From assembly GCA_017519185.1 (NCBI GenBank), contig JAFWSX010000006.1:96084-160083 (forward strand): 64,000 nucleotides of DNA. The letters run 5' to 3'. The position numbers and the translations under genes are program-made. This DNA comes from Bacteroidales bacterium. Lineage in GTDB: Bacteria; Bacteroidota; Bacteroidia; Bacteroidales; UBA932. The notes beneath the pieces are model-generated. The model did not search any database, was not told the origin of the DNA, and was given only the letters and a program-made list of their open reading frames with translations. Positions 6,600-31,549 of the stretch are shown in pieces (positions within the stretch are counted from its first letter, which is position 1; every line of letters begins with the position of its first letter).

Positions 6600-8018
6600 A
6601 TGGAAATGATCAAACAGTCTTTGCAGCAGAAGCAGGTCCAGAAGCTTTCTCCTCTCCAGATACAGACGATAAAGCTTTTGGAATTGCCTACCCTGGAGCT
6701 GGAGCAGAGGATCCAGAAGGAGCTCGAAGAAAACCCCGTGCTTGACGAGGTTAACGACGAGAACCCCGAGGAGGATGACGGCCTTCCCAAGAAGGTGTCG
6801 CTCAGCGACTATCCGGCAGACGACCAGACTCCCTCCTATAAGACCTATGTCAACAACCAGGGCAAGGATCTCAAACCGCAGTACAACACTTTTTCTGTCA
6901 AGGAGAGTTTCCATCAGAATCTCGAGTCCCAGCTCGGCTACTGTCATCTGACACCCAGAGCCCGCCAGATCGCCTCATTCATCATTGGAATGATCGATGA
7001 TGACGGCTATCTGCGCCGCGACCTTGAGTCACTTGCTGACGATATCTCGTTCCGTCTCAACATCGAGACAGATGTCAACGAGCTCGAAGACCTTCTGAGC
7101 ATAATTCAGGAGTTCGACCCTGTCGGTGTGGGAGCGAGGGACCTGCGCGAGTGCCTGCTGCTTCAGATCAAGGCTAAAACACACGACCAGGCTCAGCAGG
7201 ATGCCCAGGAAATCCTTGAGAACCACTTTGAGGAATTCACCAAGAAGCATTACTCGAAGATCCTCGCCAAGATGAAGATCAGCGAAGACAGGCTCAAAAA
7301 GGCGATTGAAGAGATAGTCCATCTGAATCCCCGTCCCGGAGGCCAGATCGACGACTCGTACAGCGAGCAGGCCCAGCAGGTGGTGCCTGATTTCGTCCTT
7401 GAACTGAAAGACGGCAAACCTGTTATGTCGATGCCCCGTTTCAATGTCCCCGAACTCAGGGTGAACAAGCGCTATGCCGACATCCTTATGGATTCCGCCT
7501 CCAAGTCTACAAAAGAAGGCAAGGAAGCAGTGACTTTCGTCAAGCAGAAACTGGATTCTGCCAAATGGTTCATCGAGGCGATCAAACAGAGGCAGCGCAC
7601 GCTCCAGAACACGATGAACGCCATAATCGAGTTCCAGTATGATTTCTTCATCGACGGCGACGAGACCAAGCTGAAGCCGATGGTCCTCAAGAATATAGCT
7701 GAGCGTACAGGGCTTGACATTTCTACAATTTCTCGTGTTGTGAACTGCAAATACATCCAGACACATTTCGGAATCTACCCCCTGAAGTATTTCTTCTCCG
7801 AAGGACTGATGACAGAAAGCGGTGAGGAAGTGTCTACCCGCGAGATAAAGAAGATCCTTACTGAAAGTATCGAGGCAGAAGACAAGTCCAAACCTCTGAC
7901 CGACGAGGAACTTGTGACCGTCCTCACGGAAAAAGGCTACAAGGTTGCCCGAAGGACCGTGGCCAAGTACAGGGAGCAGCTGAACATCCCCATAGCGCGC
8001 CTCCGCAAAGAGATATAA
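6600..8018 (+). CDS. rpoN: RNA polymerase sigma-54 factor
   Basis: 472 aa with an N-terminal Gln/Leu-rich activator-interaction region and a C-terminal RpoN box ARRTVAKYREQLNIP. Confidence 0.96.
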   Translation: MEMIKQSLQQKQVQKLSPLQIQTIKLLELPTLELEQRIQKELEENPVLDEVNDENPEEDDGLPKKVSLSDYPADDQTPSYKTYVNNQGKDLKPQYNTFSVKESFHQNLESQLGYCHLTPRARQIASFIIGMIDDDGYLRRDLESLADDISFRLNIETDVNELEDLLSIIQEFDPVGVGARDLRECLLLQIKAKTHDQAQQDAQEILENHFEEFTKKHYSKILAKMKISEDRLKKAIEEIVHLNPRPGGQIDDSYSEQAQQVVPDFVLELKDGKPVMSMPRFNVPELRVNKRYADILMDSASKSTKEGKEAVTFVKQKLDSAKWFIEAIKQRQRTLQNTMNAIIEFQYDFFIDGDETKLKPMVLKNIAERTGLDISTISRVVNCKYIQTHFGIYPLKYFFSEGLMTESGEEVSTREIKKILTESIEAEDKSKPLTDEELVTVLTEKGYKVARRTVAKYREQLNIPIARLRKEI

Positions 8019-19843: not shown

Positions 19844-21338
19844 ATGTCGGGTTGTTTGATGCGTTAAGTTTGCGGCGGCGGTAGAACAGTATGCTGACCA
19901 CCACGGGAACCATATAGCAGAGCAGAAGCAAGGTCTGGACTCCGAGTTTGGGCCAGAGCGACAGCTCAGGCACGAACAGCGATACGAAGTAGATGCCAAG
20001 GCCGAGAAGTATGCACAAGCCTATCTGCACCCAGTTATAGGGTATGGGGTAGTATTTGTTTCCCAGCCACAGGGAGATCGCCATCATTACGACGTAGCTG
20101 GCAACGTGTCCCCAGGCCGCAGCGTAATAGCTGAAGCGGGGCATGAATATTATGTTGATGGCGAGTGTGACTACAAGACCGGCAAGAGTGATCCATACGG
20201 CATAGCCGGTCTTGCCACTCAGCTTGTACCACATGCTTATATTGAACTGCATTCCCAGCAGCACATAGGCCATAAGCATTATGGGCGTTATGGAGAGGCC
20301 TTCGCGGAAGTTGCGGCCGAGGATGAGACCGATCTCGTCGAGATAGAGCGTTACCACCAGGAAACCGAACATGCAGAAGGCCACGAAATAGCTCATCACC
20401 TGTGCGTAAAGAGCCTTGTTGTCCTTGTCTTTCTCCCTCTGGAAAAAGAAAGGCTCAGCCGCATAGCGGAACATCTGCACGAACAGGGACATAATGACTG
20501 CGATCTTCACGCCGGCCTGATATACTCCAAGGTCGGCACGCCACAACTCAGGATCAGCGTTGAGGAAGCGCATCAGAATCCTGTCCATAAAGTCGTTCAG
20601 CACTCCGGGCAGGCCTGCTATCATCAAGGGGAGAGAATAGATTAGCAGTGAGCGGGTCAATTCCTTGTCAAGACGGAACCTGAGGCGGAAGATTTCCGGA
20701 ATAAGCAGTATCAGGCACAGCAGACAGCTTATGAGGATTGCGAATATTGCATAGGTATAATCAGGCACAGGACTCACGAAAGTGAGCATCCAGCTGTCCG
20801 GATGGGCTGCCGCAAACTTCGGGAAGCGAAGGTAAAGCAGCAGGTTCACTCCCAGTTCGGTAAGTATCTTGAGGGTTTTTATGATAGCGAACTTGACTGC
20901 CTTGTGCTCATAACGCAACCTGGCGAATATTATGGCAGTGATGGTGTCTATCCACAGGATGAGGCCCACATACTTTATGACACGGCCGTTGCCTTCATAT
21001 CCGAGGGCGGTGGAGATGCCGCCGGAGAAGGTGGAACAGCAGATGTAGAACAGCGCGCACAGCACAAAGACAATCGAGAAGGCAGTGGAGAAGACCTTTG
21101 AGGAATTGTTGATTTCCTTGATGGTAGCATATCGGAAACAGCCAGTCTCAAGACCCAGCGCCAGGACTACCTGCAGGATGGCAATGTAAGATAGGAATTC
21201 AGTGACGACACCGTAATCGGAACGGCTGAGTATCGCCGTATATACGGGAACCAGCATAAAGTTGACGACACGGGCCAGAATGGTGCTCAGACCATATATG
21301 GCGGTTTCGCCTGCCAGTTGTTTCAACGGATTTGCCAT
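19833..21338 (-). CDS. MOP-superfamily polysaccharide/lipid-linked oligosaccharide flippase
   Basis: About 500-aa polytopic protein starting [34 protein letters not shown], the Wzx/MurJ-like N-terminal pattern. Its 3' end overlaps the dut start by 11 bp. Confidence 0.82.
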
Positions 21339-21359
21339 CTCGGAGTCAAGAATACCATA

Positions 21360-21367
21360 CAAAAATA
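21360..21367 (-). promoter_or_regulatory. -7 box TATTTTTG (minus strand) for the flippase-dut-murF string
   Basis: Matches TAnnTTTG, 21 nt upstream of ATG 21338. Confidence 0.4.
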
Positions 21368-21378
21368 GGAAAAATGGC

Positions 21379-21386
21379 TAAATTTG
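21379..21386 (+). promoter_or_regulatory. -7 box TAAATTTG for the cyclophilin gene
   Basis: Matches TAnnTTTG, 20 nt upstream of ATG 21407. Confidence 0.45.
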
Positions 21387-21406
21387 CCCTGCAAATAATA
21401 AACATT

Positions 21407-22063
21407 ATGAAACGAGTACTCGCATTATCACTGATCGTAACTATGGCACTTTTATTCAGCGGTTGCAAGAATGGCAACAAGACTCCGAAAGATATCACTG
21501 CCGACCAGCCGTCTTTCTCACAGGGTGAAGTCGCAGAACCCGAAGAAATCGCAGAAGAGCCTGTCTTCAAGATTTCAACATCAATGGGTGACATCGTAAT
21601 CAAACTCTATAAGGAAACCCCTCTTCATCGCGACAATTTCGTCAAACTCGCCCGCAGCGGTTACTATGACGGTATGCTGTTCCACCGCGTCATCAAGAAC
21701 TTCATGATCCAGGGCGGTGACCCCTTCACCAAGCAGGAAGGCAAGGAAGCCCAGTATGGCACAGGCGGTCCTAACTACACCATTCCCGCCGAGATCGTTC
21801 CCGGCAAAACCCATAAGAAAGGAGCGCTTGCTGCAGCCCGTCGTGGAGACAACGTGAATCCTGAGAAGGCATCTTCAGGTTCGCAGTTCTATCTTGTCCA
21901 GAGCGAGGAAGGCTGCAAGCACCTCGACGGAGAATACACTATCTTCGGTGAAACGATTTCCGGACTTGACGTTATCGACAAAATCGCCTCTGTAGCCACC
22001 AACAACCGCAATCTTCCCCTTGAGCCTGTAAAAATTATTTCAGTAAAAGAAGTGAAAGAATAA
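21407..22063 (+). CDS. Cyclophilin-type peptidyl-prolyl cis-trans isomerase, lipoprotein
   Basis: MKRVLALSLIVTMALLFSGC lipobox, then FHRVIKNFMIQGGDP and the GSQFYL cyclophilin signature. Confidence 0.92.
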   Translation: MKRVLALSLIVTMALLFSGCKNGNKTPKDITADQPSFSQGEVAEPEEIAEEPVFKISTSMGDIVIKLYKETPLHRDNFVKLARSGYYDGMLFHRVIKNFMIQGGDPFTKQEGKEAQYGTGGPNYTIPAEIVPGKTHKKGALAAARRGDNVNPEKASSGSQFYLVQSEEGCKHLDGEYTIFGETISGLDVIDKIASVATNNRNLPLEPVKIISVKEVKE

Positions 22064-22067
22064 ATTG

Positions 22068-22083
22068 TGGCACGCCTATTGCT
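22068..22083 (+). promoter_or_regulatory. Candidate sigma-54 (-24/-12) promoter TGGCACGCCTATTGCT
   Basis: Matches TGGCACG-N4-TTGCW at every specified position. GG is at 22069-22070 and GC at 22081-22082. It starts 5 nt after the cyclophilin stop codon. Confidence 0.5.
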
Positions 22084-22093
22084 TTAACCTAAA

Positions 22094-22170
22094 TCGAGTT
22101 TTTCATAGGTTAAGTTTTTAGGTTAAAAATAATAACGGCCGTTTCCCAAAGGAACGGCCGTTATTATTTT
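22094..22170 (+). ncRNA. Candidate sigma-54-dependent small RNA (~75 nt)
   Basis: The predicted TSS is ~12 nt after the GC element. The AU-rich 5' part holds two AGGUUAA copies. It ends at the 13-bp-stem terminator. No CDS lies on this strand. Confidence 0.3.
22131..22170. terminator. Bidirectional intrinsic terminator (cyclophilin / pepD convergent pair)
   Basis: Perfect 13-bp stem AATAACGGCCGTT / AACGGCCGTTATT with a 9-nt loop. T-runs follow on both strands. Confidence 0.85.
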
Positions 22171-22184
22171 GTGCTATTCCGAAG

Positions 22185-23648
22185 TTATTTCTTCGGGGCG
22201 TCATTCAAGACAGCCACGATGAAATCCCAGAACTTGGCAACGCTCGACACGAGTACCCTCTCGTCGGGAGAGTGGGGTGAGCAGAGGGTCGGTCCGCACG
22301 ATACCATATCCCATTTCGGATATTTGGCACCCAGGATGCCGCACTCCAGGCCGGCGTGTACGGCCATTACTTCGGGTTCCCTGCCGTAAAGTCTCTTGTA
22401 GACCTTCTTCATCTCGGCCAGTATGGCTGAGTCCATGTTGGGTTTCCAGCCTGAGTATGCTCCAGAGAATGTTACTTTTGCTCCTGCAAGTTCGAAGACG
22501 TTGCGCATCTGTTCAGCCATGTCCATCTTTGAACTGTCGATGGAGCTGCGGATGAGGCTGCTGACAGTGAATACGCCGTTTTCTGTCTTGACTATGGCAA
22601 GGTTGCCGGAGGTTTCAACCATACCGGGCATATCGAGGCTCATCCTTGTGACTTCGTTGGTGCAGGCAGAAATCGCCTTGATCATCTTCAGCGCCACGTT
22701 GCCGGCAATGACTGTGTCCGCTTTCGCTTTCTTTGCAAAAATCTCGACGGCGGGATCGATCTTGCCCATCTCGTTCTTCACTTCTGAAAGTACGCGTGAA
22801 ACTGCTATGTCCACTGCGACGGCTTCAGCCTCAGGAACAGCTACGACGGCCACGCACTCTCGGGGGATGGCGTTGCGAAGGTTGCCGCCCTCGATGCAGG
22901 CCAGTTTGCCATTGTGGCTACGGAGCAGAGGCAGAAGCACTCTTGCCATTATCTTGTTGGCGTTGCCGCGGCCTTCGTTGATTTCCATTCCTGAATGGCC
23001 TCCGCGAAGCCCCTTGACAGTTACCTCATAAGCCACATATCCGGCAGGCAGGGCCTCTTCCTTGTATCTGCGGGTTACTGTGACATCCACTCCGCCGGCG
23101 CATCCGACATACAGTTCACCTTCGGTCTCGGAATCCATATTGATGAGGATTTCTCCTTTCAGCACGCCAGGGGCGAGTTTGAATGCTCCGGTCATTCCGG
23201 TTTCTTCATCCACGGTGAAAAGGGCTTCGATGGGGCCGTGTTGAATGTCCTTGGCCTCAAGGATAGCCATAGCGGTGGCTACGCCCATTCCATTGTCAGC
23301 TCCAAGAGTGGTGCCTGTGGCATATACCCACTGCTCACCGTCCTTCTCGACTATGCGGGGAGTGATCGGGTCCTTTTTGAAATCGTGCACGACATCGTTG
23401 TTCTTCTGGGGTACCATATCCATATGGCCCTGCAGGATGATGCCCTTGCGGTCTTCCATTCCGGGAGTGGCGGGTTTGCGGATGATTATGTTGCCCATCG
23501 GGTCCTTGATGGTCTCCAGGCCCAGGTCCTTGCCGAACTTCTCAAGGAAGGCAGAGACTTGCTCTTCGTGTTTCGAGGGTCTGGGAATGCGAGTGAGAGC
23601 GTAGAAGTTTTTCCACACTCTCTCGGGGTTAAGATGTGATATATCCAT
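22185..23648 (-). CDS. pepD: Aminoacyl-histidine (Xaa-His) dipeptidase, M20C
   Basis: 487 aa. The N-terminus is LNPERVWKNFYALTRIPRPSKHEEQV. It also has HMDMV, GADNGMG and DEETGMTGA metal-ligand motifs. Confidence 0.93.
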   Translation of the reverse strand: MDISHLNPERVWKNFYALTRIPRPSKHEEQVSAFLEKFGKDLGLETIKDPMGNIIIRKPATPGMEDRKGIILQGHMDMVPQKNNDVVHDFKKDPITPRIVEKDGEQWVYATGTTLGADNGMGVATAMAILEAKDIQHGPIEALFTVDEETGMTGAFKLAPGVLKGEILINMDSETEGELYVGCAGGVDVTVTRRYKEEALPAGYVAYEVTVKGLRGGHSGMEINEGRGNANKIMARVLLPLLRSHNGKLACIEGGNLRNAIPRECVAVVAVPEAEAVAVDIAVSRVLSEVKNEMGKIDPAVEIFAKKAKADTVIAGNVALKMIKAISACTNEVTRMSLDMPGMVETSGNLAIVKTENGVFTVSSLIRSSIDSSKMDMAEQMRNVFELAGAKVTFSGAYSGWKPNMDSAILAEMKKVYKRLYGREPEVMAVHAGLECGILGAKYPKWDMVSCGPTLCSPHSPDERVLVSSVAKFWDFIVAVLNDAPKK

Positions 23649-23652
23649 AATT

Positions 23653-24744
23653 CTATTTTAAAACTGAGTTCAAAGGGAATGAAACTGTCTGTCCGAACTG
23701 GTAGATGGGAACGCGTGTCTGGAGCAGCATCTGGCTGCCGTCCATAATGCGGGCGGTGGCGATGACCGGCACCCTGTAGTATACAGTGCTGGACGGAATC
23801 AGTTTGGAAGAAGCTATGCCTGCAGTGGAGACTGAAGGAGCCTTGTCAAAAGCCAGTTCAAGCACGATGGGGCGGCCTGAAACGTCATTGGCGGGCAGCA
23901 GGCCTTCGGTCTCGGAGAGCCTGAAAGCAACATACATCTGCTGCTTCGAAGATGCATTGGATGCAGTCGGGACAACATCGAAATTCATTGTCTGGACTGA
24001 TGTCGTGCTGGTTCCGTAGAACAGGCTCATATATTCCTGCTCAAGCCTGGTGATTTCGGCGATGGCCGCCTGCATTGCTTCTCCGCTGTATGTCGCATCG
24101 GTGTCACCGGTGATTATCTGCATACGGCTTCGGCGAAGGTCGAAAATAGTGTTGGCAGTTTCCTGGGCTTTCTTTTCGAGCGATTTCTCCACTACCTGGC
24201 TCTGAGAGACTGCAACCCTCTGGAAACCTTCGGCAGTGTTGACCGTCTTGTAGAGGGTAGTTGTTGCGCTGGTAAGGTTTCCTTCTACGTCCTTGCCTGC
24301 AAAAACGTCATTGTTGGCTATAGACGGGAATCTCCAGGCTTCGGGCTTGCCGGTGTAACTGTCGGAAGCCACTATAAGTCCCTGTGAGCACAACTGCAGG
24401 AAGTTGGCGGCAGCTGTTCCGCGGCCAGAAAGGTTGAGCGCAATCCTGGTCGCAGGATCGGCCTCGAGATAGGGCGCCATGTCGATGGACTTCAGAGTGT
24501 AGGTCACGGCGTCTTCGGTACGTGCCTCGGAGCCCATATATTTCTGCGCGAACTGAGCATAGGGACCTGCTACGAAGTTTTCTTTCTCGGCAGTCACTGT
24601 CAGCATTATCGAAGTGGAAGGCAGTGAATAGAGCACTACGCCTGAAGGCTGCTCCTGTCCGGCCTCGAGCATCTGGGCGTTCGCTGTCTGCAGGCAGGCA
24701 AACAGGCAGAACGATGCGAAAAGGATTTTAGTCAAATGTTTCAT
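23653..24744 (-). CDS. DUF4831-family secreted protein
   Basis: Signal peptide MKHLTKILFASFCLFACLQTANAQ. The C-terminal pattern is YYRVPVIATARI...IYQFGQTVSFPLN. The start was set to ATG 24742-24744 to avoid overlap with the upstream gene. Confidence 0.75.
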   Translation of the reverse strand: MKHLTKILFASFCLFACLQTANAQMLEAGQEQPSGVVLYSLPSTSIMLTVTAEKENFVAGPYAQFAQKYMGSEARTEDAVTYTLKSIDMAPYLEADPATRIALNLSGRGTAAANFLQLCSQGLIVASDSYTGKPEAWRFPSIANNDVFAGKDVEGNLTSATTTLYKTVNTAEGFQRVAVSQSQVVEKSLEKKAQETANTIFDLRRSRMQIITGDTDATYSGEAMQAAIAEITRLEQEYMSLFYGTSTTSVQTMNFDVVPTASNASSKQQMYVAFRLSETEGLLPANDVSGRPIVLELAFDKAPSVSTAGIASSKLIPSSTVYYRVPVIATARIMDGSQMLLQTRVPIYQFGQTVSFPLNSVLK

Positions 24745-24748
24745 ATCG

Positions 24749-25672
24749 TTATTGTTTGTTTTTTTCATAATTCCAAATATTCTTCCACCTGCGGTGGCTC
24801 CAGAGCCAGTTGGCCCTGTCATCTCTGATGTCACGCTCCAGAAGCGAGGCGAAGGCCTTCGTTATCTCTCCGGGCTGTGTCGCGCGGGCATCTTCGCATA
24901 TCGTCTCGCAGTTTATCACATACCGGCTTCGGCCTGAGCGGTTGATGCCGATGTATGCAACAGGCATGCCTGTCCTCCTTGCTATGGCCTCAGCCCCGGT
25001 GACCCACTCGGTACGAAGGCCGAGAAAGTCTGTCTCCAAGCCACCCTTGCCTTCGGGGCACTGGTCTGCGATGAAGAAATAGACCTTCCGCTCGTTCCTG
25101 TGCTCCAGCGCATAACGAAGAAAACTGCCCGACGAAACCAGATTCTTCCGTTTGAAACGGTGAAAACTGCGCAGATGCAGGAACAGTTCCTCGCTCAGGC
25201 GGTTCGACATCGGGTGGTAGGCACTCACCACGTTGTCATAGCCATAGGTGGCCTCGTCGCTGTAGACCGGAAGGCCGGGTAGCAACTCCCAGTTGCCGGT
25301 GTGTCCGAGCAGGACCGCCACGCTTCCATACTTCTCAAAGAGCCCCTCGAGAGCTTCTCCGCCCGTCACGCTGCATACACCTCTGCGTTTGATGTGCCGG
25401 TAGCTGCGGGTCAGGCTCCAGACAGTCTCGCAGATAATGTCAGCGATATGCTGATAATAGTCTCTCGAAAGAGTTGTCACGCCATCCTCCGTGAGGTCCG
25501 GAAAAGTTCCCGACAGGTTGGTGCGGATCACGCTCATCCGGTATTTCAGGACATCCCCGAGCAGCCAGGCTACGACGCGGGCCAGGACCCGGTGCACGCA
25601 CAGCGGCAGAAGCGACAGGAGCACTGTCGGCAACATCAGAAGATAAACCGCCAGTGTGCGTAAAAACTTCAT
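24749..25672 (-). CDS. Lipid A biosynthesis (LpxL/HtrB-like) lysophospholipid acyltransferase family protein
   Basis: N-terminal TM helix, an H(x)4E box (LLGHTGNWELLP) and 307 aa, typical for late acyltransferases. Confidence 0.82.
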   Translation of the reverse strand: MKFLRTLAVYLLMLPTVLLSLLPLCVHRVLARVVAWLLGDVLKYRMSVIRTNLSGTFPDLTEDGVTTLSRDYYQHIADIICETVWSLTRSYRHIKRRGVCSVTGGEALEGLFEKYGSVAVLLGHTGNWELLPGLPVYSDEATYGYDNVVSAYHPMSNRLSEELFLHLRSFHRFKRKNLVSSGSFLRYALEHRNERKVYFFIADQCPEGKGGLETDFLGLRTEWVTGAEAIARRTGMPVAYIGINRSGRSRYVINCETICEDARATQPGEITKAFASLLERDIRDDRANWLWSHRRWKNIWNYEKNKQ

Positions 25673-25724
25673 TCCAGAGGGCTGTTTTACATTTTATGCA
25701 GTTTCAAATTTAATTCAAAAATGC

Positions 25725-25732
25725 TAAATTTG
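25725..25732 (+). promoter_or_regulatory. -7 box TAAATTTG for the POT transporter gene
   Basis: Matches TAnnTTTG, 30 nt upstream of ATG 25763. Confidence 0.45.
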
Positions 25733-25762
25733 TTGTTCGAGTAAGCTAAAACTTAAATTCTT

Positions 25763-27457
25763 ATGTTTAAAGGACATCCTAAAGGCTTGTATGCATTGGC
25801 TCTTGCCAACACAGGCGAACGATTCGGTTATTACACGATGCTTGCCATCTTCATGCTGTTCCTCCAGGCTAAATTCGGATGGGGCGGCTCCCTGGCCAGC
25901 ACGACTTATGCAATTTTCCTGGCAGCAGTTTATTTCTTCCCGGTAGTGGGCGGTATCCTGGCCGACAAGATCGGCTACGGCAAATGCGTCGTGACGGGAA
26001 TCTGCGTAATGTTCCTGGGTTATGTGGCGCTCTCCATCCCCACTGCGGCCAACACTCTCGGTGTTGTGCTGATGCTCGGAGCCCTGCTCTTCATAGCTAT
26101 CGGTACGGGCCTTTTCAAAGGCAACCTGCAGGTGCTTGTGGGCAACCTCTACGATGACCCGAAATATTCTGCCAAGCGTGATTCCGCGTTCAGCCTGTTC
26201 TATATGGCCATAAACATAGGCGCGATGTTCGCTCCTGCTGCGGCAACCGCCATCACCAACAAGTTCCTCAGCAAGGCCGGCCTTATCTACAAGGCCGACA
26301 TCCCTGCGCTGGCCCATCAGTTCCTGAACGGTACAATTTCAGCTGAGAACACAGCCAAGCTGCAGGATCTTGCATCCATGATGCCCGGCAATGCGGCTTC
26401 GATGCCTCTCGACCAGTTCAGCTCATACTACATCGAGCATCTGGCGTCGTCATACAATATGGGATTCGCCATCGCCTGCGTATCTCTGATCGTGTCAATG
26501 CTTATCTACGTGCTCACCCGCAACTGGCACAAACACGTTGATGTCAATGCCAAGCAGGCGGCTGCCAAGGGCAATACCGACATCGTCGAGCTCACCCCGA
26601 AGCAGACCAAAGACCGCATCGTGGCCCTCTGCCTTGTGTTTGCAGTAGTCATATTCTTCTGGATGGCGTTCCACCAGAACGGACAGTCCCTCACCTGGTT
26701 CGCGCGTGATTACACTCAGGACCACGCCGACGGCTGGATAAGGATGGGCTTCAACATATGGGTGCTTGCGCTCATCGCAGCTTCGGTATACACACTGTTC
26801 GGAACCTTCCAGTCTGCGACGCGCAAAGGCAAGTTCATCTGCGGCTGCGTGACGGCTATACTTTGGCTCGGCGCGTACTGGATATACAGAGGAATTCCCA
26901 ATCCCCTCGAGATCCAGCCCCAGCTCTTCCAGCAGTTCAACCCCTTCTATGTAGTTGCCCTGACGCCGGTGTCAATGGCAATCTTCAGTTCGCTTGCCGC
27001 CAAGAAGAGCGAGAAGTATCCCAAGGGTATGGAGCCTTCTGCACCCAAGAAGATCGGCCTCGGAATGTTCGTGGCAGCTATAGGTTATGTGATAATGATG
27101 CTTGCCTCAAGAGGTCAGGCCTCTCCTGCAGAACTGGGCGGCACCGTTTCTCCCGACCCCGTGGTTCCGGCATACCTCATCTCTACCTACCTCGTGCTGA
27201 CTTTCGCCGAGCTGCTGCTCAGCCCTATGGGTATTTCATTCGTCACCAAGGTGGCTCCTCCGAAATACAAAGGCCTTATGATGGGTCTGTGGTTTGCTGC
27301 AACTGCTATCGGCAACTACCTCAGCTCTATTCCCGGACTGCTCTGGAACAAGGTTCCGCTGTGGGCCAACTGGGGTATCCTTATGGCACTCTGCGTCATC
27401 GCGGGAGTCATTATGTTCTCTATGCTCAAGAAGATTGAAGCCGCAACAGAGTCTTAG
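25763..27457 (+). CDS. Proton-dependent oligopeptide transporter (POT/PTR2, DtpT-like)
   Basis: PTR2 signatures GERFGYYTMLAIFMLF and FYMAINIGAMF. 564 aa, polytopic. Confidence 0.92.
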   Translation: MFKGHPKGLYALALANTGERFGYYTMLAIFMLFLQAKFGWGGSLASTTYAIFLAAVYFFPVVGGILADKIGYGKCVVTGICVMFLGYVALSIPTAANTLGVVLMLGALLFIAIGTGLFKGNLQVLVGNLYDDPKYSAKRDSAFSLFYMAINIGAMFAPAAATAITNKFLSKAGLIYKADIPALAHQFLNGTISAENTAKLQDLASMMPGNAASMPLDQFSSYYIEHLASSYNMGFAIACVSLIVSMLIYVLTRNWHKHVDVNAKQAAAKGNTDIVELTPKQTKDRIVALCLVFAVVIFFWMAFHQNGQSLTWFARDYTQDHADGWIRMGFNIWVLALIAASVYTLFGTFQSATRKGKFICGCVTAILWLGAYWIYRGIPNPLEIQPQLFQQFNPFYVVALTPVSMAIFSSLAAKKSEKYPKGMEPSAPKKIGLGMFVAAIGYVIMMLASRGQASPAELGGTVSPDPVVPAYLISTYLVLTFAELLLSPMGISFVTKVAPPKYKGLMMGLWFAATAIGNYLSSIPGLLWNKVPLWANWGILMALCVIAGVIMFSMLKKIEAATES

Positions 27458-27463
27458 TTTTCC

Positions 27464-28531
27464 ATGCGACGTTTCTGGCTTTTCGCGATTCTGTCAGCAG
27501 TCCTGTCGTTCCATTCTCCGGACTTGAGAGCGGAACCGGAAAGTCCGTTCGCATTCCAGGAAACGACTCTGGATTTCGGAAAGATCAAGGAGGCGGACGG
27601 TCCGGTCAGCGGCAGTTTCTATTTTGTCAACCGCTCCTCCAGGCCGGTCCAGATCGATCTTGTGACGACCAGCTGCGGCTGCACTACTGCCGATTATCCC
27701 ACCAGGCCAGTCGAGCCTGGCGAGATATGTGAGCTGGTGGTGCGTTTCAACCCCGCCAATATGTCCGGCAAGGTATACCGCGACGTGACGGTCATCACTC
27801 GTTCGAGCGAAGACCGACTGGTCATCACTGCCGATGTCGAGCCGACACCTGTCGGCCCTGAGCAGATGTACCCTGGCATAGTGGGCGGCGGAATACGTTC
27901 CCGCGACCTGTCATACCGTTTCGGCTACGCAGCGCAGGGACGCAGCCAGTCCCAGAGCATAACCCTCTACAACAACGGCGGCAAGACCGTTCTCCTCAAA
28001 GCTGAAAGCAGCAATCCTAACCTCACTGTCAAGTGCCCGTACTCCCTGAAACCTGGCACTGCCGATGCAATGACAGTGACCTACGACATTCCCGTTTCAG
28101 CTTCCAGCTACGGCGTGACCGACGACACCGTCATCCTCTATGTCGACGGAGTGAAAGCTGAGCACCCCATCCGCCTGAGCGCCATAATGGTCGACGATCT
28201 CGACCGCAACGACAAGAGCGCTCCTTCAATGAGGGTCGACCCGTCATATATCACAGTGAAAGACATCCGCAAGGGCAAGACCGTGCGCAGACATTTCTCC
28301 ATCTACAACGACGGACGCAAAGATCTCTTCATCCGTCACGTGAAGACCTCTGCCGGAGTCACCACGCCTCTCAAGGCCGGCACGAGCGTGCCGCCCGGTA
28401 AAAGCATTACCGTCGATGTCAGGGTAACTGCGCTCAAGCCGTCCTCGACCTCAGATGAGAACATCTATATCATTACCAACGACCCCCAGAGGCCACAGAA
28501 AGAAATAGTCATCAGGACTATAACAAAATAA
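27464..28531 (+). CDS. DUF1573-domain secreted protein (three PapD/ASH-like beta-sandwich repeats)
   Basis: Signal peptide, then DFGKIKEADGPVSGSFYFVNRSSRPVQIDLVTTSCGCTTADYPTRPVEPGE, the DUF1573 CGCT motif. Two further degenerate repeats follow. Confidence 0.8.
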   Translation: MRRFWLFAILSAVLSFHSPDLRAEPESPFAFQETTLDFGKIKEADGPVSGSFYFVNRSSRPVQIDLVTTSCGCTTADYPTRPVEPGEICELVVRFNPANMSGKVYRDVTVITRSSEDRLVITADVEPTPVGPEQMYPGIVGGGIRSRDLSYRFGYAAQGRSQSQSITLYNNGGKTVLLKAESSNPNLTVKCPYSLKPGTADAMTVTYDIPVSASSYGVTDDTVILYVDGVKAEHPIRLSAIMVDDLDRNDKSAPSMRVDPSYITVKDIRKGKTVRRHFSIYNDGRKDLFIRHVKTSAGVTTPLKAGTSVPPGKSITVDVRVTALKPSSTSDENIYIITNDPQRPQKEIVIRTITK

Positions 28532-28547
28532 CCTAAAACTTATACTC

Positions 28548-31184
28548 ATGAAAAAACTTTTCGTAGCTATGATTGCGATGTCGATGATGGTATTGACATC
28601 CTGCAAGAACAATGCTTCAGGCAATTATGAGTACCCGTTCCAGAATCCCAACCTGTCGACGGAGAAGAGGGTGGACAACATCATCTCCCTGCTGACTCCC
28701 GATGAGAAGATCGGACTTATGATGAACGGATCCATTTCGGTGGAGCGCCTCGGCATTCCTGCCTACAACTGGTGGTCAGAAGCCTGCCACGGCATCTGCA
28801 CCAACGGTGCTACCGTTTTCCCTCAGGCCATCGGCCTTGCTGCTACCTTTGACCAGGATATGCAGTATGACATCTACACGATGGTTTCCGACGAGGCCCG
28901 CGCCCACTGGAACATTACCAACCACAACCAGATGGACAAGACAGAGGCTACAGGAGGCATCTGGAACCAGGGACTTTCATTCTGGTGCCCTAACATCAAC
29001 ATCTTCCGTGATCCCCGCTGGGGCCGCGGCCAGGAGACTTACGGCGAGGATCCGTACCTGACAGGCACTATGGGAAGCGCTACGGTAAGAGGTATGCAGG
29101 GCAATGACAAAAGATATCTCAAGACCCATTCTTGTGCAAAGCACTATGCAGTGCACAGCGGTCCTGAGTCAGGCCGTCACCGTGACGACGTCTATGTTTC
29201 AATGCGTGATCTCTGGGAGACATATCTCCCCGCATTCAAGGAGCTTGTGACCGAAGCTGACGTGCAGGAAGTGATGTGCGCATACAACCGCTACGAAGGT
29301 GAACCTTGCTGCGGCAATGACAGGCTTCTTGTCGACATCCTCCGCAACAAGTGGGAATACAAGCATCTCGTGGTTTCTGACTGCGGTGCCATCAACAACT
29401 TCTACACCAAGGGCCAGCACGAAACCCATCCGGATGCTGCCACTGCCAGTGTTGACGGAGTTCTCTCAGGCACCGACATCGAGTGCGGTACCAGCTACAA
29501 GGCGCTCAAGACCGCCCTTGCCGACGGACTCATCAAGGAAAGCGACCTCGACGTCAGCCTGCGCCGCATTTTCACCAGCCGCTTCGAGCTTGGCCTCCAC
29601 GACCCTGAGTCGATGGATCCCTGGGCAAACCTCGGCGCAGAGACTATGAGCAGCCCCGAGCATACGGCAATGGCCCAGAGGGCGGCACGTGAGGCTATGG
29701 TACTCCTCAAGAACGACGGTATCCTTCCTCTCTCAAAGAACACCAAGACCATCGCTGTCGTCGGTCCCAACGCCGACAATGCAGGTATGCAGAACGGTAA
29801 CTACAGCGGTACTCCCACTGCAGAGAACACTCTTTCAATCCTCAACGCTCTCAAGAAAGCTGTTCCGGGTGTGAACATCATCTATGAAAAAGGCTGCGAA
29901 CTTGCCGATCCGTATCTGACTCTTGACCATATGGCCGACCTTAACGGCGGCAAAGGCCTCCACGGTGAATATTTCAATAACACCAATATGTCAGGCACTC
30001 CCGTTGCAACTGCTGACTACACCAACCTCAATCTCCGTACTTCAGGTGACTATCGCTTTGCTCCGGGTGTCGAGATGACCAACTTCTCAGCACGCTACAC
30101 AGGAACCTTCATTGCTGACTTTACCGGTGATATGAACTACAGCATCCGCGGTAACGACACCTGGAAGTTCACTGTCAACGGAAAAACCGTAGCAGAACAG
30201 AAGGAAGCCACCAATATGCGTTATGGCCGCGGCCAGGTTCCGCAGACTTCATTCCCCGTAGTGAAGGGTCGCACATACACTGTAGCCATCGACTATACAA
30301 AGGGCGAGACCGGTACTGCATATTTCGCATTCAACCTCAGCCAGCGCAAGCTTCCCGACTATGACGAGATTGCTGCCAAAGTTGCCGGCGCTGACGTAAT
30401 CATTATGGTAGGCGGCCTCTCTGCACAACTCGAGGGCGAAGAGATGATGGTGACCTATGACGGCTTCTCAGGCGGTGACCGTACCAAGATCGAACTTCCC
30501 GAGCCTCAGGTCAAACTCCTCCAGGCTGTACATTCTACCGGCAAACCGGTCGTATTCGTGAACTGCACAGGCAGCGCCATCGGCTTCGGAGCTATCGAGA
30601 ACCAGTACAATGCTCTTCTCCAGGCCTGGTACGGCGGACAGGCTGCAGGCATCGCTGTGGCTGACATCCTCTTCGGCGACTACAACCCTGCAGGACGTCT
30701 TCCCGTAACATTCTACGCTTCAACCAGCCAGCTTCCCGACTTCAAGGACTACAGCATGGAGAACCGCACTTACCGCTATTTCACCGGCAAACCTCTCTAT
30801 GCGTTCGGATATGGTCTCAGCTATACCAGCTTCACCTATGGCGACGCCAAGCTTTCAAAGAATTCAGTGAAGGCCGGCAAGGGTGTTGACATCACTATCC
30901 CCGTGACCAACTCAGGAAAGCGTGACGGAGACGAAGTAATCCAGGTTTACGTGAAGAGTCTTGACAATCCTGAGGCTCCCATCAAGGCCCTCAAGGGCTT
31001 CAAGCGTGTCAATATCGCTGCCGGTGCAACTGCAAGCGTGAAGATTACTCTCGAGCCCGATGCATTTGCGTACTACAGTGCAGCTATCGATGAACTTGCT
31101 CCGAGAGCCGGCAAATACCAGATCCTCTACGGCAGTTCGTCACGCGACGAAGACCTCAAGGCTCTGGATTTCCAGGTTCTTTGA
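28548..31184 (+). CDS. Glycoside hydrolase family 3 beta-glucosidase/beta-xylosidase with inserted PA14 domain, lipoprotein
   Basis: Lipobox MMVLTSC. GH3 motifs WWSEACHG, GRGQETYGEDPYL, KHYAVHSGPE and VVSDCGAI. A PA14-like insert (GLHGEYFNNTNMSG...) is followed by the C-terminal FnIII-like domain. Confidence 0.93.
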   Translation: MKKLFVAMIAMSMMVLTSCKNNASGNYEYPFQNPNLSTEKRVDNIISLLTPDEKIGLMMNGSISVERLGIPAYNWWSEACHGICTNGATVFPQAIGLAATFDQDMQYDIYTMVSDEARAHWNITNHNQMDKTEATGGIWNQGLSFWCPNINIFRDPRWGRGQETYGEDPYLTGTMGSATVRGMQGNDKRYLKTHSCAKHYAVHSGPESGRHRDDVYVSMRDLWETYLPAFKELVTEADVQEVMCAYNRYEGEPCCGNDRLLVDILRNKWEYKHLVVSDCGAINNFYTKGQHETHPDAATASVDGVLSGTDIECGTSYKALKTALADGLIKESDLDVSLRRIFTSRFELGLHDPESMDPWANLGAETMSSPEHTAMAQRAAREAMVLLKNDGILPLSKNTKTIAVVGPNADNAGMQNGNYSGTPTAENTLSILNALKKAVPGVNIIYEKGCELADPYLTLDHMADLNGGKGLHGEYFNNTNMSGTPVATADYTNLNLRTSGDYRFAPGVEMTNFSARYTGTFIADFTGDMNYSIRGNDTWKFTVNGKTVAEQKEATNMRYGRGQVPQTSFPVVKGRTYTVAIDYTKGETGTAYFAFNLSQRKLPDYDEIAAKVAGADVIIMVGGLSAQLEGEEMMVTYDGFSGGDRTKIELPEPQVKLLQAVHSTGKPVVFVNCTGSAIGFGAIENQYNALLQAWYGGQAAGIAVADILFGDYNPAGRLPVTFYASTSQLPDFKDYSMENRTYRYFTGKPLYAFGYGLSYTSFTYGDAKLSKNSVKAGKGVDITIPVTNSGKRDGDEVIQVYVKSLDNPEAPIKALKGFKRVNIAAGATASVKITLEPDAFAYYSAAIDELAPRAGKYQILYGSSSRDEDLKALDFQVL

Positions 31185-31185
31185 T

Positions 31186-31440
31186 TCAGGAAAGCTTGAG
31201 TGCGTCGATTTCGGCGTACTTGTCGAGGATGGAACGGGCTACCTTGAGCAGTTGCTCTCCCTTCTCTGTAAGGATGAGGGATTTATCGTAACGGATGAAA
31301 AGGGCGCAGCCCAGTTCCTCCTCAAGCTTCGCTATATGGTTGGAAACTGCAGGCTGGCTGATGCCGAGCGACGCTGCGGCTTTGCTGAAGTTGAGGCACT
31401 CGGCGGCTTCGCAGAAAGCTTTGAGACGGTTATCTGTCAT
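31186..31440 (-). CDS. LysR-type winged-HTH domain only (84 aa, no effector-binding domain)
   Basis: LKAFCEAAECLNFSKAAASLGISQPAVSNHIAKLEEELGCALFIR is the LysR N-terminal HTH. The ORF stops after the linker helix, 1 nt from the GH3 stop codon. Confidence 0.7.
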   Translation of the reverse strand: MTDNRLKAFCEAAECLNFSKAAASLGISQPAVSNHIAKLEEELGCALFIRYDKSLILTEKGEQLLKVARSILDKYAEIDALKLS

Positions 31441-31487
31441 AACAGGCCCAAAGTTAGCGATTTATTTGGTAATTAAGATTTAAGTTG

Positions 31488-31495
31488 TATCTTTG
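31488..31495 (+). promoter_or_regulatory. -7 box TATCTTTG for rpsF-rpsR-rplI
   Basis: Matches TAnnTTTG, 54 nt upstream of the rpsF ATG. A TTTG lies ~23 nt further upstream. Confidence 0.5.
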
Positions 31496-31496
31496 C

Positions 31497-31527
31497 AGCC
31501 CCTTTGGAAAAACCGAAGGGGCTTTTT
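31497..31527 (+). promoter_or_regulatory. Leader hairpin plus T-run upstream of rpsF
   Basis: AGCCCCTTTGG-AAAAA-CCGAAGGGGCT forms an 11-bp stem with one G.U pair. It is followed by TTTTA. Confidence 0.5.
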
Positions 31528-31549
31528 AACTAACAAATTATCAAAGAAC

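What the first reader, a model, noticed from the sequence alone, without database searches (positions are those of the whole stretch)
22068..22170. Full-consensus sigma-54 promoter aimed at a gene-free 75-nt stretch closed by a terminator: candidate RpoN-dependent sRNA
TGGCACG-CCTA-TTGCT at 22068-22083 on the plus strand matches the sigma-54 -24/-12 consensus (TGGCACG-N4-TTGCW) at every specified position.
- It begins 5 nt after the cyclophilin stop codon.
- No CDS follows on that strand, because pepD is convergent.
- About 37 nt downstream of the predicted start (~22094) lies a perfect 13-bp-stem terminator with a T-run.
- The implied ~75-nt RNA has an AU-rich 5' part with two AGGUUAA copies, a possible seed.
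- rpoN with a canonical RpoN box is in the same window.
- I checked the other TGGCAC and GTGCCA occurrences I could find by eye, and none has a correctly spaced TTGC.

A 10-12 nt consensus match is expected well under once per 64 kb by chance. I know of no described sigma-54-driven sRNA at this locus in Bacteroidales.
Basis: partly seen in the sequence, partly recalled or inferred. Interest (0 to 1): 0.65.

Follow-up and report, generated by a model that had tools for sequence, protein, structure and literature searches.

The report
Sigma-54-driven FopS-like small RNA gene
The short gap between two genes holds a real small regulatory RNA gene, a relative of the FopS/GibS RNAs of gut Bacteroides, and here and in dozens of related uncultured bacteria it sits behind a textbook sigma-54 promoter, which links this RNA family to an alternative stress-type transcription programme not reported for it before.

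Summary
TGGCACG-CCTA-TTGCT at 22068-22083(+) is the only exact sigma-54 consensus match in the window (0 of 100 shuffles). A 20-bp hairpin with a U-run follows, and rpoN, with an RpoN box, lies at 6600-8018.

The roughly 77-nt RNA (22096 to about 22172) belongs to the FopS/GibS type of Bacteroides sRNAs. It is 27/34 identical to the FopS-10 5' end. Its Rfam RF04319 score is 38 bits, below the gathering score of 56.

A metagenome scan used only a 19-nt piece of the RNA body. It found 98 unique relatives:
- 73 carry GG-N10-GC at a fixed distance upstream, against 0 at a control offset. The logo is TGGCAC-N5-TTGCA.
- About 8 carry a Bacteroides sigma-A box aimed at the same start site.

Sequence conservation begins at the predicted start, and the terminator stem covaries. 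A model built without the window copy scores it at 57 bits (E 1e-11).

The seed is antisense to A-rich translation start regions. The best site in the window is the start of a GH3 lipoprotein gene (28548). It ranks 1 of 135 candidate start regions and is conserved in a relative.

Still inferred: sigma-54 dependence, expression and the target. No activator-binding site was found. Novelty: a new variant of a known kind.

The parts
22068..22083 (+). Sigma-54 type promoter. The -24 element is TGGCACG (GG at 22069-70). The -12 element is TTGCT (GC at 22081-82).
   Evidence: Only exact consensus match in the window. The same element is kept in orthologous spacers. It sits at a fixed distance in 73 of 98 family members.
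22094..22097 (+). Predicted transcription start, 12-14 nt after the C of the -12 GC.
   Evidence: The Rfam FopS model and the B. thetaiotaomicron FopS-10/GibS 5' ends align to 22096. Across the family, sequence conservation resumes at about +2. No experimental 5' end is available.
22096..22172 (+). FopS/GibS-type small RNA of about 77 nt.
   Evidence: Own model R1: 57.1 bits, E 1.3e-11 over 22090-22174. Rfam RF04319: 38.3 bits, full-length match, below the gathering score of 56. 27/34 identity to FopS-10, the best position in the window.
22096..22126 (+). Mostly unstructured U-rich 5' seed, GAGUUUUUCAUAGGUUAAGUUUUUAGGUUAA, antisense to a translation start region.
   Evidence: Only a weak local hairpin is predicted. 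It is invariant in the orthologues. Its reverse complement reads UUAACCUAAAAACUUAACCU-AUG-AAAAACUC.
22126..22170 (.). Bidirectional intrinsic terminator: a 20-bp hairpin between an A-run and a U-run. It is shared by the sRNA, the cyclophilin mRNA and convergent pepD.
   Evidence: Fold at -35.3 kcal/mol, z = -7.8. All 12 stem pairs covary across the family. The same hairpin follows pepD alone in L005 and L148.
6600..8018 (+). rpoN, the sigma-54 gene.
   Evidence: Pfam Sigma54_AID, Sigma54_CBD and Sigma54_DBD. RpoN box ARRTVAKYRE.
28515..28565 (+). Candidate target site: the translation start region of the GH3 lipoprotein gene (28548-31184), AUAACCUAAAACUUAUACUC-AUG-AAAAAACUUUUCG.
   Evidence: The opposite strand matches the sRNA model at 36.8 bits, E 8e-7. 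It has the best predicted duplex of 135 candidate start regions, -24.4 kcal/mol against a mean of -12.7 (sd 3.6). The site is conserved in L148. GH3 domains and a lipoprotein signal peptide are present. The target role is inferred only.
21332..22063 (+). Cyclophilin gene immediately upstream. It has no terminator of its own before the sRNA.
22185..23648 (-). Convergent pepD (M20 aminoacyl-histidine dipeptidase) gene that uses the same hairpin.

Best explanation
Window 22096 to about 22172(+) encodes a trans-acting small RNA of about 77 nt. It has the FopS/GibS architecture: an unstructured U-rich 5' seed followed directly by an intrinsic terminator. RNA polymerase carrying sigma-54 (RpoN, encoded at 6600-8018) transcribes it from the -24/-12 promoter at 22068-22083.

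The seed is the mirror image of an A-rich translation start region of an exported protein (UAACCUAAAACUUA...AUGAAAAAACU). By pairing across the start codon it would block ribosome loading, as shown experimentally for FopS on susC and for GibS in B. thetaiotaomicron. The best candidate target in this window is the GH3 lipoprotein gene at 28548.

In Bacteroidota, sigma-54 drives chaperone and envelope-stress genes. The likely logic is therefore a stress-induced brake on the synthesis of exported proteins.

What is shown:
- the motif;
- family membership;
- co-conservation of promoter and RNA;
- a start site shared with sigma-A-type paralogues;
- terminator covariation;
- seed-to-target complementarity.

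What is inferred:
- actual transcription and its RpoN dependence;
- the activator and the signal;
- target repression.
For: **Motif.** It is a unique exact consensus match, with 0 exact matches in 100 shuffles.

**Independent family test.** The metagenome scan used only the 19-mer TTTTCATAGGTTAAGTTTT from the RNA body.
- 73 of 98 unique members have GG-N10-GC 20-23 nt upstream. None does at a control offset, and none of 15 chance matches to the 19-mer has a strict -24/-12 match.
- The logo is T-GGCAC-RG-nn-TT(T/C)GC(A/T)A. Information collapses between -7 and +1 and returns at +2.
- About 8 members instead carry the Bacteroides sigma-A box TAnnTTTG, 12-13 nt before the core, which points to the same start.
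- In 1.44 Mb of fetched loci, only one other strict sigma-54 match exists apart from those in front of this RNA.

**Membership of the window copy.**
- Model R1, built without the window copy or its near-orthologues L103 and L148, scores the window at 57.1 bits, E 1.3e-11.
- Rfam's best non-tRNA hit in the whole window is FopS.
- The copy shows 27/34 identity to the FopS-10 5' end, with the 5' ends aligned at 22096.

**Structure and orthologues.**
- The terminator has compensatory changes in 12 of 12 pairs. Pairing is 88.8%, against about 40% when the register is slid.
- Orthologues L004 and L006 keep the promoter and seed unchanged, while the -10 to +1 stretch varies.

**Sigma-54 in this organism and phylum.**
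- rpoN is present.
- Sigma-54 promoters of this form work in Bacteroidota and drive chaperone and envelope genes (PMC9723704; PMC12316311).

**Target.**
Against: - There are no expression data. The organism is an uncultured rumen Bacteroidales MAG.
- No enhancer-binding-protein gene was seen among the window ORFs scanned.
- No shared upstream activator site appeared in 33 non-redundant upstream regions, using a crude k-mer and palindrome search.
- The Rfam FopS score is below gathering. Eight other family loci gave no Rfam hit at E <= 0.01.
- The characterised FopS genes use sigma-ABfr promoters (PMC11697453). The B. thetaiotaomicron gibS 5' flank also lacks a -24/-12 element.
- The cyclophilin gene has no terminator of its own, so read-through and processing could also yield this RNA.
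- Target complementarity is AU-rich. It could partly reflect a start-region composition common in this phylum.
- The 19-mer query biases the sample toward one sequence clade.
Confidence: 0.75

Rival explanations
1. The RNA is real but is made only as the 3' UTR of the cyclophilin mRNA and released by processing. On this view the -24/-12 match does not work as a promoter.
For: No terminator lies between the cyclophilin stop (22063) and the sRNA, so the mRNA must run to the shared hairpin. One B. thetaiotaomicron paralogue, FopS-14, is 3' UTR-derived (PMC11697453). No activator site was found.
Against: It does not explain why a canonical GG-N10-GC element sits at a fixed distance in 73 of 98 members spread over at least 33 unrelated upstream contexts. 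It also does not explain why sigma-A boxes replace that element at the same position in other members. Both routes could coexist.
Confidence: 0.1
2. The conserved upstream element is a promoter or operator read by something other than sigma-54, such as an ECF sigma factor or a repressor.
For: Bacteroidales encode many ECF sigma factors. No enhancer-binding protein or activator site was identified. The non-canonical B. thetaiotaomicron motif PM2 remains unassigned (PMC7366714).
Against: The logo matches the sigma-54 consensus at every diagnostic position: the TGGCAC and TTGC blocks, the invariant 10-nt GG-to-GC spacing, and a start about 12-14 nt after the GC. The same motif type is a validated sigma-54 promoter in Flavobacterium (PMC9723704). 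PM2 is described as boxes at -10 and -30, which is a different geometry.
Confidence: 0.08
3. A chance sigma-54 look-alike sits next to an ordinary bidirectional terminator between two convergent genes, and there is no RNA gene.
For: The hairpin also serves pepD, and it follows pepD without the sRNA in L005 and L148. Convergent genes commonly share a terminator.
Against: About 0.015 exact matches are expected per window. The 50 nt between motif and hairpin are conserved across about 100 metagenomic loci and match a characterised sRNA family.
Confidence: 0.02

Closest known systems
FopS, the family of paralogous sRNAs of Bacteroides thetaiotaomicron (Rfam RF04319; PMC11697453)
   Same: - Length of about 70-80 nt, with a single-stranded 5' seed followed directly by a Rho-independent terminator.
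- The seed sequence GUUUUUCAUAG...AGGUUAA, 27/34 identical to FopS-10, with the 5' ends aligned.
- Multicopy tendency: four contigs carry two copies.
- Copies occur on predicted viral contigs.
- The seed is antisense to translation start regions of exported-protein mRNAs.
   Different: - The promoter is a sigma-54 -24/-12 element, not sigma-ABfr TAnnTTTG.
- The Rfam score is 38 bits, below the gathering score of 56, and 8 other loci of the clade are missed entirely.
- The hosts are rumen and other non-Bacteroides Bacteroidales, whereas FopS was reported as conserved within Bacteroidaceae.
- Only one copy lies in this 64 kb.
- The predicted target is a GH3 lipoprotein gene rather than susC BT_3983.
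GibS (Rfam RF04182; PMC7366714)
   Same: It shares the R1 seed at the extreme 5' end (GUGUUUUUCAUAGUAUUAG). It pairs across the start codons of its target mRNAs.
   Different: GibS is about 145 nt long with a second seed (R2) and more structure. The window scores only 23 bits against it. The B. thetaiotaomicron gibS 5' flank has no GG/GC element.
Sigma-54-dependent sRNAs of Proteobacteria: Qrr1-4 (LuxO), GlmY/GlmZ (GlrR), NrsZ (NtrC). This entry rests on my own knowledge and was not checked here.
   Same: These are short trans-acting sRNAs transcribed from -24/-12 promoters. For GlmY/GlmZ, the promoter class (sigma-54, sigma-70 or both) differs between species for homologous sRNAs. That parallels the sigma-54 versus sigma-A split seen here.
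   Different: There is no sequence homology. They depend on Hfq or RapZ, whereas Bacteroidota lack Hfq. Their activators and upstream sites are known, and none was found here.
Sigma-E-dependent envelope-stress sRNAs MicA, RybB and MicL of Enterobacteria. This entry rests on my own knowledge.
   Same: The proposed logic is the same: an alternative sigma factor of a stress regulon drives an sRNA that lowers synthesis of outer-membrane proteins or lipoproteins. MicL also lies at the 3' end of a protein-coding gene and has its own promoter.
   Different: The sigma factor differs, there is no homology, and those sRNAs depend on Hfq. The stress link here is inferred only from the known sigma-54 regulon in Bacteroidota and the bile and membrane-stress induction of FopS.

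Membership tests
FopS sRNA family (Rfam RF04319) | Match to the Rfam covariance model at or above its gathering score (56 bits) | tested here: not met
   The score is 38.3 bits over the full model 1-71. E is 1e-4 for the local scan and 0.045 for the whole window. Eight other family loci gave no hit at E <= 0.01.
FopS sRNA family (Rfam RF04319) | Conserved single-stranded 5' seed (R1/R1') starting at the transcript's 5' end | tested here: met
   27/34 ungapped identity to the FopS-10 5' sequence. Position 22096 is the only one in the window reaching at least 22/34. The fold leaves the 5' part essentially open.
FopS sRNA family (Rfam RF04319) | Seed followed directly by a Rho-independent terminator, total length about 70-80 nt | tested here: met
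   The stem covaries across the family.
FopS sRNA family (Rfam RF04319) | Canonical sigma-ABfr promoter (TAnnTTTG at -7) | tested here: not met
   No TAnnTTTG lies upstream of 22096. A sigma-54 element is there instead. Only about 8 of 98 relatives have the sigma-A box.
FopS sRNA family (Rfam RF04319) | Multicopy in one genome (12-15 paralogues in Bacteroides) | tested here: inconclusive
   There is one sRNA copy in the 64-kb window. Contigs L083, L090, L166 and L189 each carry two. The whole genome is not available.
FopS sRNA family (Rfam RF04319) | Binding by RbpB and repression of SusC-type translation | not testable with these tools
   Only in silico pairing to the GH3 start region could be assessed.
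Sigma-54 (RpoN) dependent promoter | GG at -24 and GC at -12 with exact 10-nt spacing, within TGGCAC-N5-TTGCW | tested here: met
   The match is exact. The family logo reproduces the consensus.
Sigma-54 (RpoN) dependent promoter | Transcript start about 12 nt downstream of the -12 GC | tested here: met
   This is indirect. Homology to the dRNA-seq-mapped FopS/GibS 5' ends places +1 at 22096, 14 nt after C22082. Family conservation resumes at +2.
Sigma-54 (RpoN) dependent promoter | rpoN present in the genome | tested here: met
   Window 6600-8018, with three sigma-54 domains and the RpoN box.
Sigma-54 (RpoN) dependent promoter | A cognate enhancer-binding protein and its upstream activator site | tested here: inconclusive
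   No Sigma54_activat protein was found among about 34 window ORFs scanned. No shared k-mer or palindrome was found in 33 non-redundant upstream regions. The rest of the genome was not seen.
Sigma-54 (RpoN) dependent promoter | Loss of transcription without RpoN | not testable with these tools
   This needs genetics or in vitro transcription.

The most novel reading that the evidence does not exclude
Across most Bacteroidales outside the genus Bacteroides, the FopS/GibS-type sRNAs form the RNA arm of the sigma-54 stress regulon, the regulon that drives the GroES, DnaK and Lon type genes in this phylum. On this reading they act like the sigma-E-dependent MicA, RybB and MicL, throttling translation of exported glycan-degrading and outer-membrane proteins under proteotoxic or envelope stress. 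Sigma-54 control would be the ancestral state. The sigma-A promoters of B. thetaiotaomicron FopS would be a later promoter swap.
Probability: 0.35. Interest if true: 0.75.

Novelty: new variant of a known kind. Interest (0 to 1): 0.62.

Why it matters
FopS and GibS are the best-studied trans-acting sRNAs of gut Bacteroides. Their upstream regulator is described as unknown (PMC11697453). FopS conservation was reported within Bacteroidaceae.

This locus changes that picture in three ways:
- The same seed-plus-terminator RNA is widespread in rumen, human-gut and digester Bacteroidales.
- In most of those lineages it sits behind a canonical sigma-54 promoter. In others a sigma-A box is aimed at the same start.
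- That gives a concrete regulatory input to test: RpoN plus an enhancer-binding protein.

The finding also offers:
- a natural example of promoter-class switching within one sRNA family;
- a route to linking sigma-54, whose role in Bacteroidota is poorly known, to post-transcriptional control of secreted glycoside hydrolases and transporters;
- a covariance model that finds family members the current Rfam model misses.

Tried and rejected
- **Rfam at gathering thresholds** found only two tRNAs in the window and nothing at family members. The FopS link appeared only with E-value thresholds.
- **The simple terminator scanner** missed the hairpin because its stem is long and AU-extended.
- **pepD-anchored loci.** Only L004 and L006, of 80 loci, carry the RNA. 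Absence in L001-L003 is not loss. There pepD lies next to the LysR-like/rpsF region, which in the window is the far end of the block seen inverted in L148.
- **Second model hit, 28494-28563(-).** I considered it as a second sRNA gene and rejected that. It has no GG at -24, only a weak 5-bp hairpin, and it lies antisense across the GH3 start codon. It is better read as a target site.
- **Third model hit, 31458-31536(+), 13 bits.** This is the promoter and leader hairpin region upstream of an S6-like ribosomal protein gene, not an sRNA.
- **Whole-window duplex-energy scan.** It was uninformative because GC-rich coding sites with long internal loops out-score AU-rich pairings. Restricting the scan to start regions gave a clear ranking.
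- **Fuzzy-regex target search** timed out.
- **Activator-site search** by k-mer and palindrome found nothing.
- **BLAST of the family consensus** against the phage and plasmid collections found nothing.
- **PM2, the non-canonical B. thetaiotaomicron motif.** I considered it as a possible disguised sigma-54 promoter. Its described -10/-30 geometry, and the gibS 5' flank recovered from an oligonucleotide, do not fit.
- **Other near-consensus sites** at 2 mismatches (for example 24956-24971(-) and 29993-30008(+)) occur at chance frequency.
- **Literature searches** for sigma-54 or RpoN together with Bacteroides sRNAs returned nothing relevant.

Full report
**1. The observation**

The sequence reads ...GAA TAA ATTG TGGCACG CCTA TTGCT TTAACCTAAATCGAGTTTTTCATAGGTTAAGTTTTTAGGTTAAAAATAATAACGGCCGTTTCCCAAAGGAACGGCCGTTATTATTTTGTG....
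- The -24/-12 match is at 22068-22083(+), with GG at 22069-70 and GC at 22081-82.
- It is the only site in the window at 0 or 1 mismatch. No exact match occurred in 100 dinucleotide-preserving shuffles. At 2 mismatches the count is at chance.
- The flanks are a cyclophilin ORF ending at 22063 and a convergent M20 dipeptidase (pepD) at 22185-23648(-).
- Positions 22126-22170 fold into a 20-bp hairpin between an A-run and a U-run (-35.3 kcal/mol, z = -7.8). This is a bidirectional terminator.
- rpoN lies at 6600-8018, with all three sigma-54 domains and the RpoN box ARRTVAKYRE.

**2. Orthologous loci**

A pepD-anchored scan of one genome per species returned 80 loci, and the window's closest relatives are rumen Bacteroidales MAGs.
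- Only L004 and L006 keep the cyclophilin-pepD arrangement.
- Both keep the promoter: TGGCACGCCTATTGCT in L006 and TGGCACACCTATTGCT in L004. Both also keep the downstream stretch AGTTTTTCATAGGTTAAG-TTTTAGGTTA unchanged.
- By contrast, the -10 to +1 stretch, the third-codon positions of cyclophilin and the terminator stem differ.
- L001-L003 lack the element next to pepD. There pepD lies next to the LysR-like/rpsF region, which in the window is the far end of a block that is inverted in L148 (section 7). This is not evidence of loss.

**3. A large family, found with a promoter-free query**

I scanned the metagenome collection with TTTTCATAGGTTAAGTTTT, a 19-mer taken from the RNA body only. It returned 120 loci with 124 matches. 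Of these, 107 share the architecture [upstream element] - about 13 nt - CGAATAGTT-core-AGGTTA(GAATTGCG or AAAGGAA) - GC-rich hairpin - T-run.

Among 98 unique copies (a set that also includes the window and L006):
- 73 have GG-N10-GC with the C of the GC 20-23 nt before the core. None does at a control offset 30 nt further upstream.
- None of the 15 chance matches to the 19-mer has a strict -24/-12 match.
- The position table gives T(-26) GGCAC (-21) R G n n T T (T/C) G C (A/T) A. Information falls to near zero from -7 to +1 and rises again at +2 (C-G-A-A-T-A-G...). This is the signature of a promoter followed by a conserved transcript.
- Several further members have the same -24 block with TTGT or TTGGC at -12.
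- About 8 members, including human-gut contigs, instead have the Bacteroides sigma-A box TAnnTTTG ending 12-13 nt before the core. That places the start at the same CGAAUAG. Two unrelated promoter types converging on one start site is strong evidence that both are promoters.
- In all 1.44 Mb of fetched loci, only one strict TGGCAY-N5-TTGCW match exists that is not in front of this RNA.
- The upstream flanks fall into at least 33 unrelated contexts.

**4. Membership of the window copy**

A covariance model (R1) was built from 75 family members. The window and its near-orthologues L103 and L148 were excluded.
- It scores window 22090-22174 at 57.1 bits, E 1.3e-11.
- It scores L004 and L006 at 64.9 and 54.3 bits.
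- All 12 terminator pairs show compensatory changes. Pairing is 88.8%, against 38-46% when the register is slid, and 0 of 500 shuffles reach the observed covariation.

**5. Relation to known RNAs**

With E-value thresholds, Rfam's best hit is RF04319, BTncRNA_FopS. It covers 22096-22173 and the full model at 38.3 bits, below the gathering score of 56. E is 1e-4 locally and 0.045 for the whole window, where it is the only non-tRNA hit.

What the literature says about FopS:
- It is a 14-member family in B. thetaiotaomicron.
- It shares the R1 seed with GibS and is bound by RbpB.
- It represses translation of susC BT_3983 by pairing at the translation start region, and it is induced by bile salts.
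- Its conservation was reported within Bacteroidaceae (PMC11697453).

Sequence comparison:
- Oligonucleotides in that paper give the FopS-10 and GibS 5' ends as GTGTTTTTCATAGTATTAG....
- The window from 22096 is 27/34 identical without gaps. No other window position reaches 22/34.
- So the experimentally mapped FopS/GibS 5' end aligns 14 nt after the C of the -12 GC, where a sigma-54 start is expected.

Limits of the relationship:
- Eight other family loci are not detected by Rfam at E <= 0.01.
- The window has no sigma-A box.
- The B. thetaiotaomicron gibS 5' flank (...TCTGTTATATTTATG) has no -24/-12 element.

The locus is therefore a divergent clade of the FopS/GibS kind with a different promoter class. 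It is not a member of RF04319 by Rfam's own criterion.

**6. How it probably works**

The reverse complement of the seed reads like a translation start region: UAACCUAAAA(A)CUUAACCU-AUG-AAAAA(A)CU, which would begin Met-Lys-Lys-Leu.

Evidence for a target at the GH3 gene:
- Model R1 hits the window's minus strand at 28494-28563 (36.8 bits, E 8e-7).
- On the plus strand, this is the start of a GH3 glycoside hydrolase lipoprotein (MKKLFVAMIAMSMMVLTSC...).
- The minus strand there has no GG at -24 and only a weak hairpin. I read it as a target site, not a second gene.
- Among 135 candidate start regions of 52 genes, this one gives the best duplex with the sRNA 5' region: -24.4 kcal/mol, against a mean of -12.7 and sd of 3.6. 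The pairing runs from the upstream UAACCUAAAACUUA across the AUG.
- The site is conserved in the orthologous GH3 gene of L148, where it matches the seed even better.
- Several of the chance 19-mer matches from the metagenome scan are start codons of long ORFs with signal-peptide-like N-termini. The seed therefore mirrors a recurrent start-region type of exported proteins.

By analogy with the experimentally shown action of FopS and GibS, pairing across the start codon would block translation initiation.

Sigma-54 promoters of this form are functional in Bacteroidota. They drive groES-groEL, dnaK, grpE-dnaJ, htpG, lon and envelope genes (PMC9723704; PMC12316311). This suggests the physiological logic of a stress-induced brake on exported-protein synthesis. 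That last step is inference.

**7. Caveats and rivals**

Caveats:
- No expression data exist for this uncultured organism.
- No enhancer-binding-protein gene was found among the window ORFs scanned.
- No shared upstream activator site emerged.

Rivals:
- The cyclophilin gene lacks its own terminator. Its mRNA must therefore contain the sRNA as a 3' UTR, and processing could add to or replace promoter-driven synthesis. One B. thetaiotaomicron paralogue is 3' UTR-derived.
- A non-sigma-54 reader of the motif is possible but fits the logo poorly.
- A pure chance match is excluded in practice.

**8. Novelty**

Full-text searches combining sigma-54 or RpoN with Bacteroides or Bacteroidetes and sRNA terms found no report of a sigma-54-driven FopS/GibS-type sRNA. 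A 2025 cross-phylum sigma-54 regulon survey does not mention sRNAs.
- The RNA kind is known.
- The promoter class, the breadth of the clade and the sigma-54/sigma-A switch are new.
- I rate the finding a new variant of a known kind, of moderate to high interest for Bacteroidota RNA biology.

Noticed in passing
window 22126-31540; L148 1480-10620: The block of about 9.3 kb from pepD through DUF4831, the lipid A acyltransferase-like gene (LpxL-type), the POT transporter and DUF1573 to GH3 is inverted in L148 relative to the window and L006. In L148 the GH3 gene, the predicted target, abuts the sRNA terminator. pepD there carries its own copy of the same near-palindromic hairpin. The hairpins may be the recombination sites.
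   Followed up: partly
window 22084-22093 versus 22117-22126: TTAACCTAAA lies between the -12 element and the predicted start, and it is complementary to the second AGGTTAA repeat (9-bp helix). TTAACCT at -10 to -4 is conserved in the subfamily with AAAGGAA-type 3' halves. In read-through transcripts from cyclophilin it could mask part of the seed. A sigma-54-initiated RNA would lack it.
   Followed up: no
L083 (314- and 5575+), L090 (314- and 6916+), L166, L189: Four metagenome contigs carry two sRNA copies in inverted orientation a few kb apart (5.2 kb in L083, 6.6 kb in L090). Each of the eight copies has its own sigma-54-type promoter. This shows the family is multicopy, and it could mark invertible or mobile segments.
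   Followed up: no
L202 780-798, L210 833-851; L203, L205, L207: Predicted viral contigs (IMG/VR) carry the RNA. L202 and L210 have a complete sigma-54-type copy (ATGGCATAGAAATTGCAAT...). L203, L205 and L207 have the seed fused to a different 3' part. This echoes the phage-borne FopS copy noted in PMC11697453.
   Followed up: partly
L161, L165, L171, L143/L114, L086, L139, L102: Most matches to the 19-mer that are not sRNA genes are the reverse strand of start codons (AAAACTTAACCT-ATG-AAAA) of long ORFs with signal-peptide-like N-termini. L161 has three such starts (two of them near-matches) in about 13 kb. This looks like a recurrent translation start region for exported proteins in Bacteroidota.
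   Followed up: partly
window 24956-24971 (-): AGGCATGCCTGTTGCA keeps GG-N10-GC (2 mismatches to the consensus). It lies upstream of the DUF4831-pepD gene pair, inside the 3' end of the lipid A acyltransferase-like ORF. The number of such 2-mismatch sites in the window is at chance level.
   Followed up: no
window 31190-31540: A short LysR-type ORF with only the HTH region lies on the minus strand. It is followed by a sigma-A-like box (TATCTTTG) and a GC hairpin (31489-31525) upstream of an S6-like ribosomal protein gene starting at about 31551. Model R1 gives a weak hit here (13.4 bits, E 0.25). The same region lies next to pepD in L001-L003.
   Followed up: partly
window 22081-22168: Rfam's Thr_leader model scores 36 bits here in the small local scan. 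I take this as an artefact of the long AU-extended hairpin plus U-run, because no threonine operon follows.
   Followed up: no
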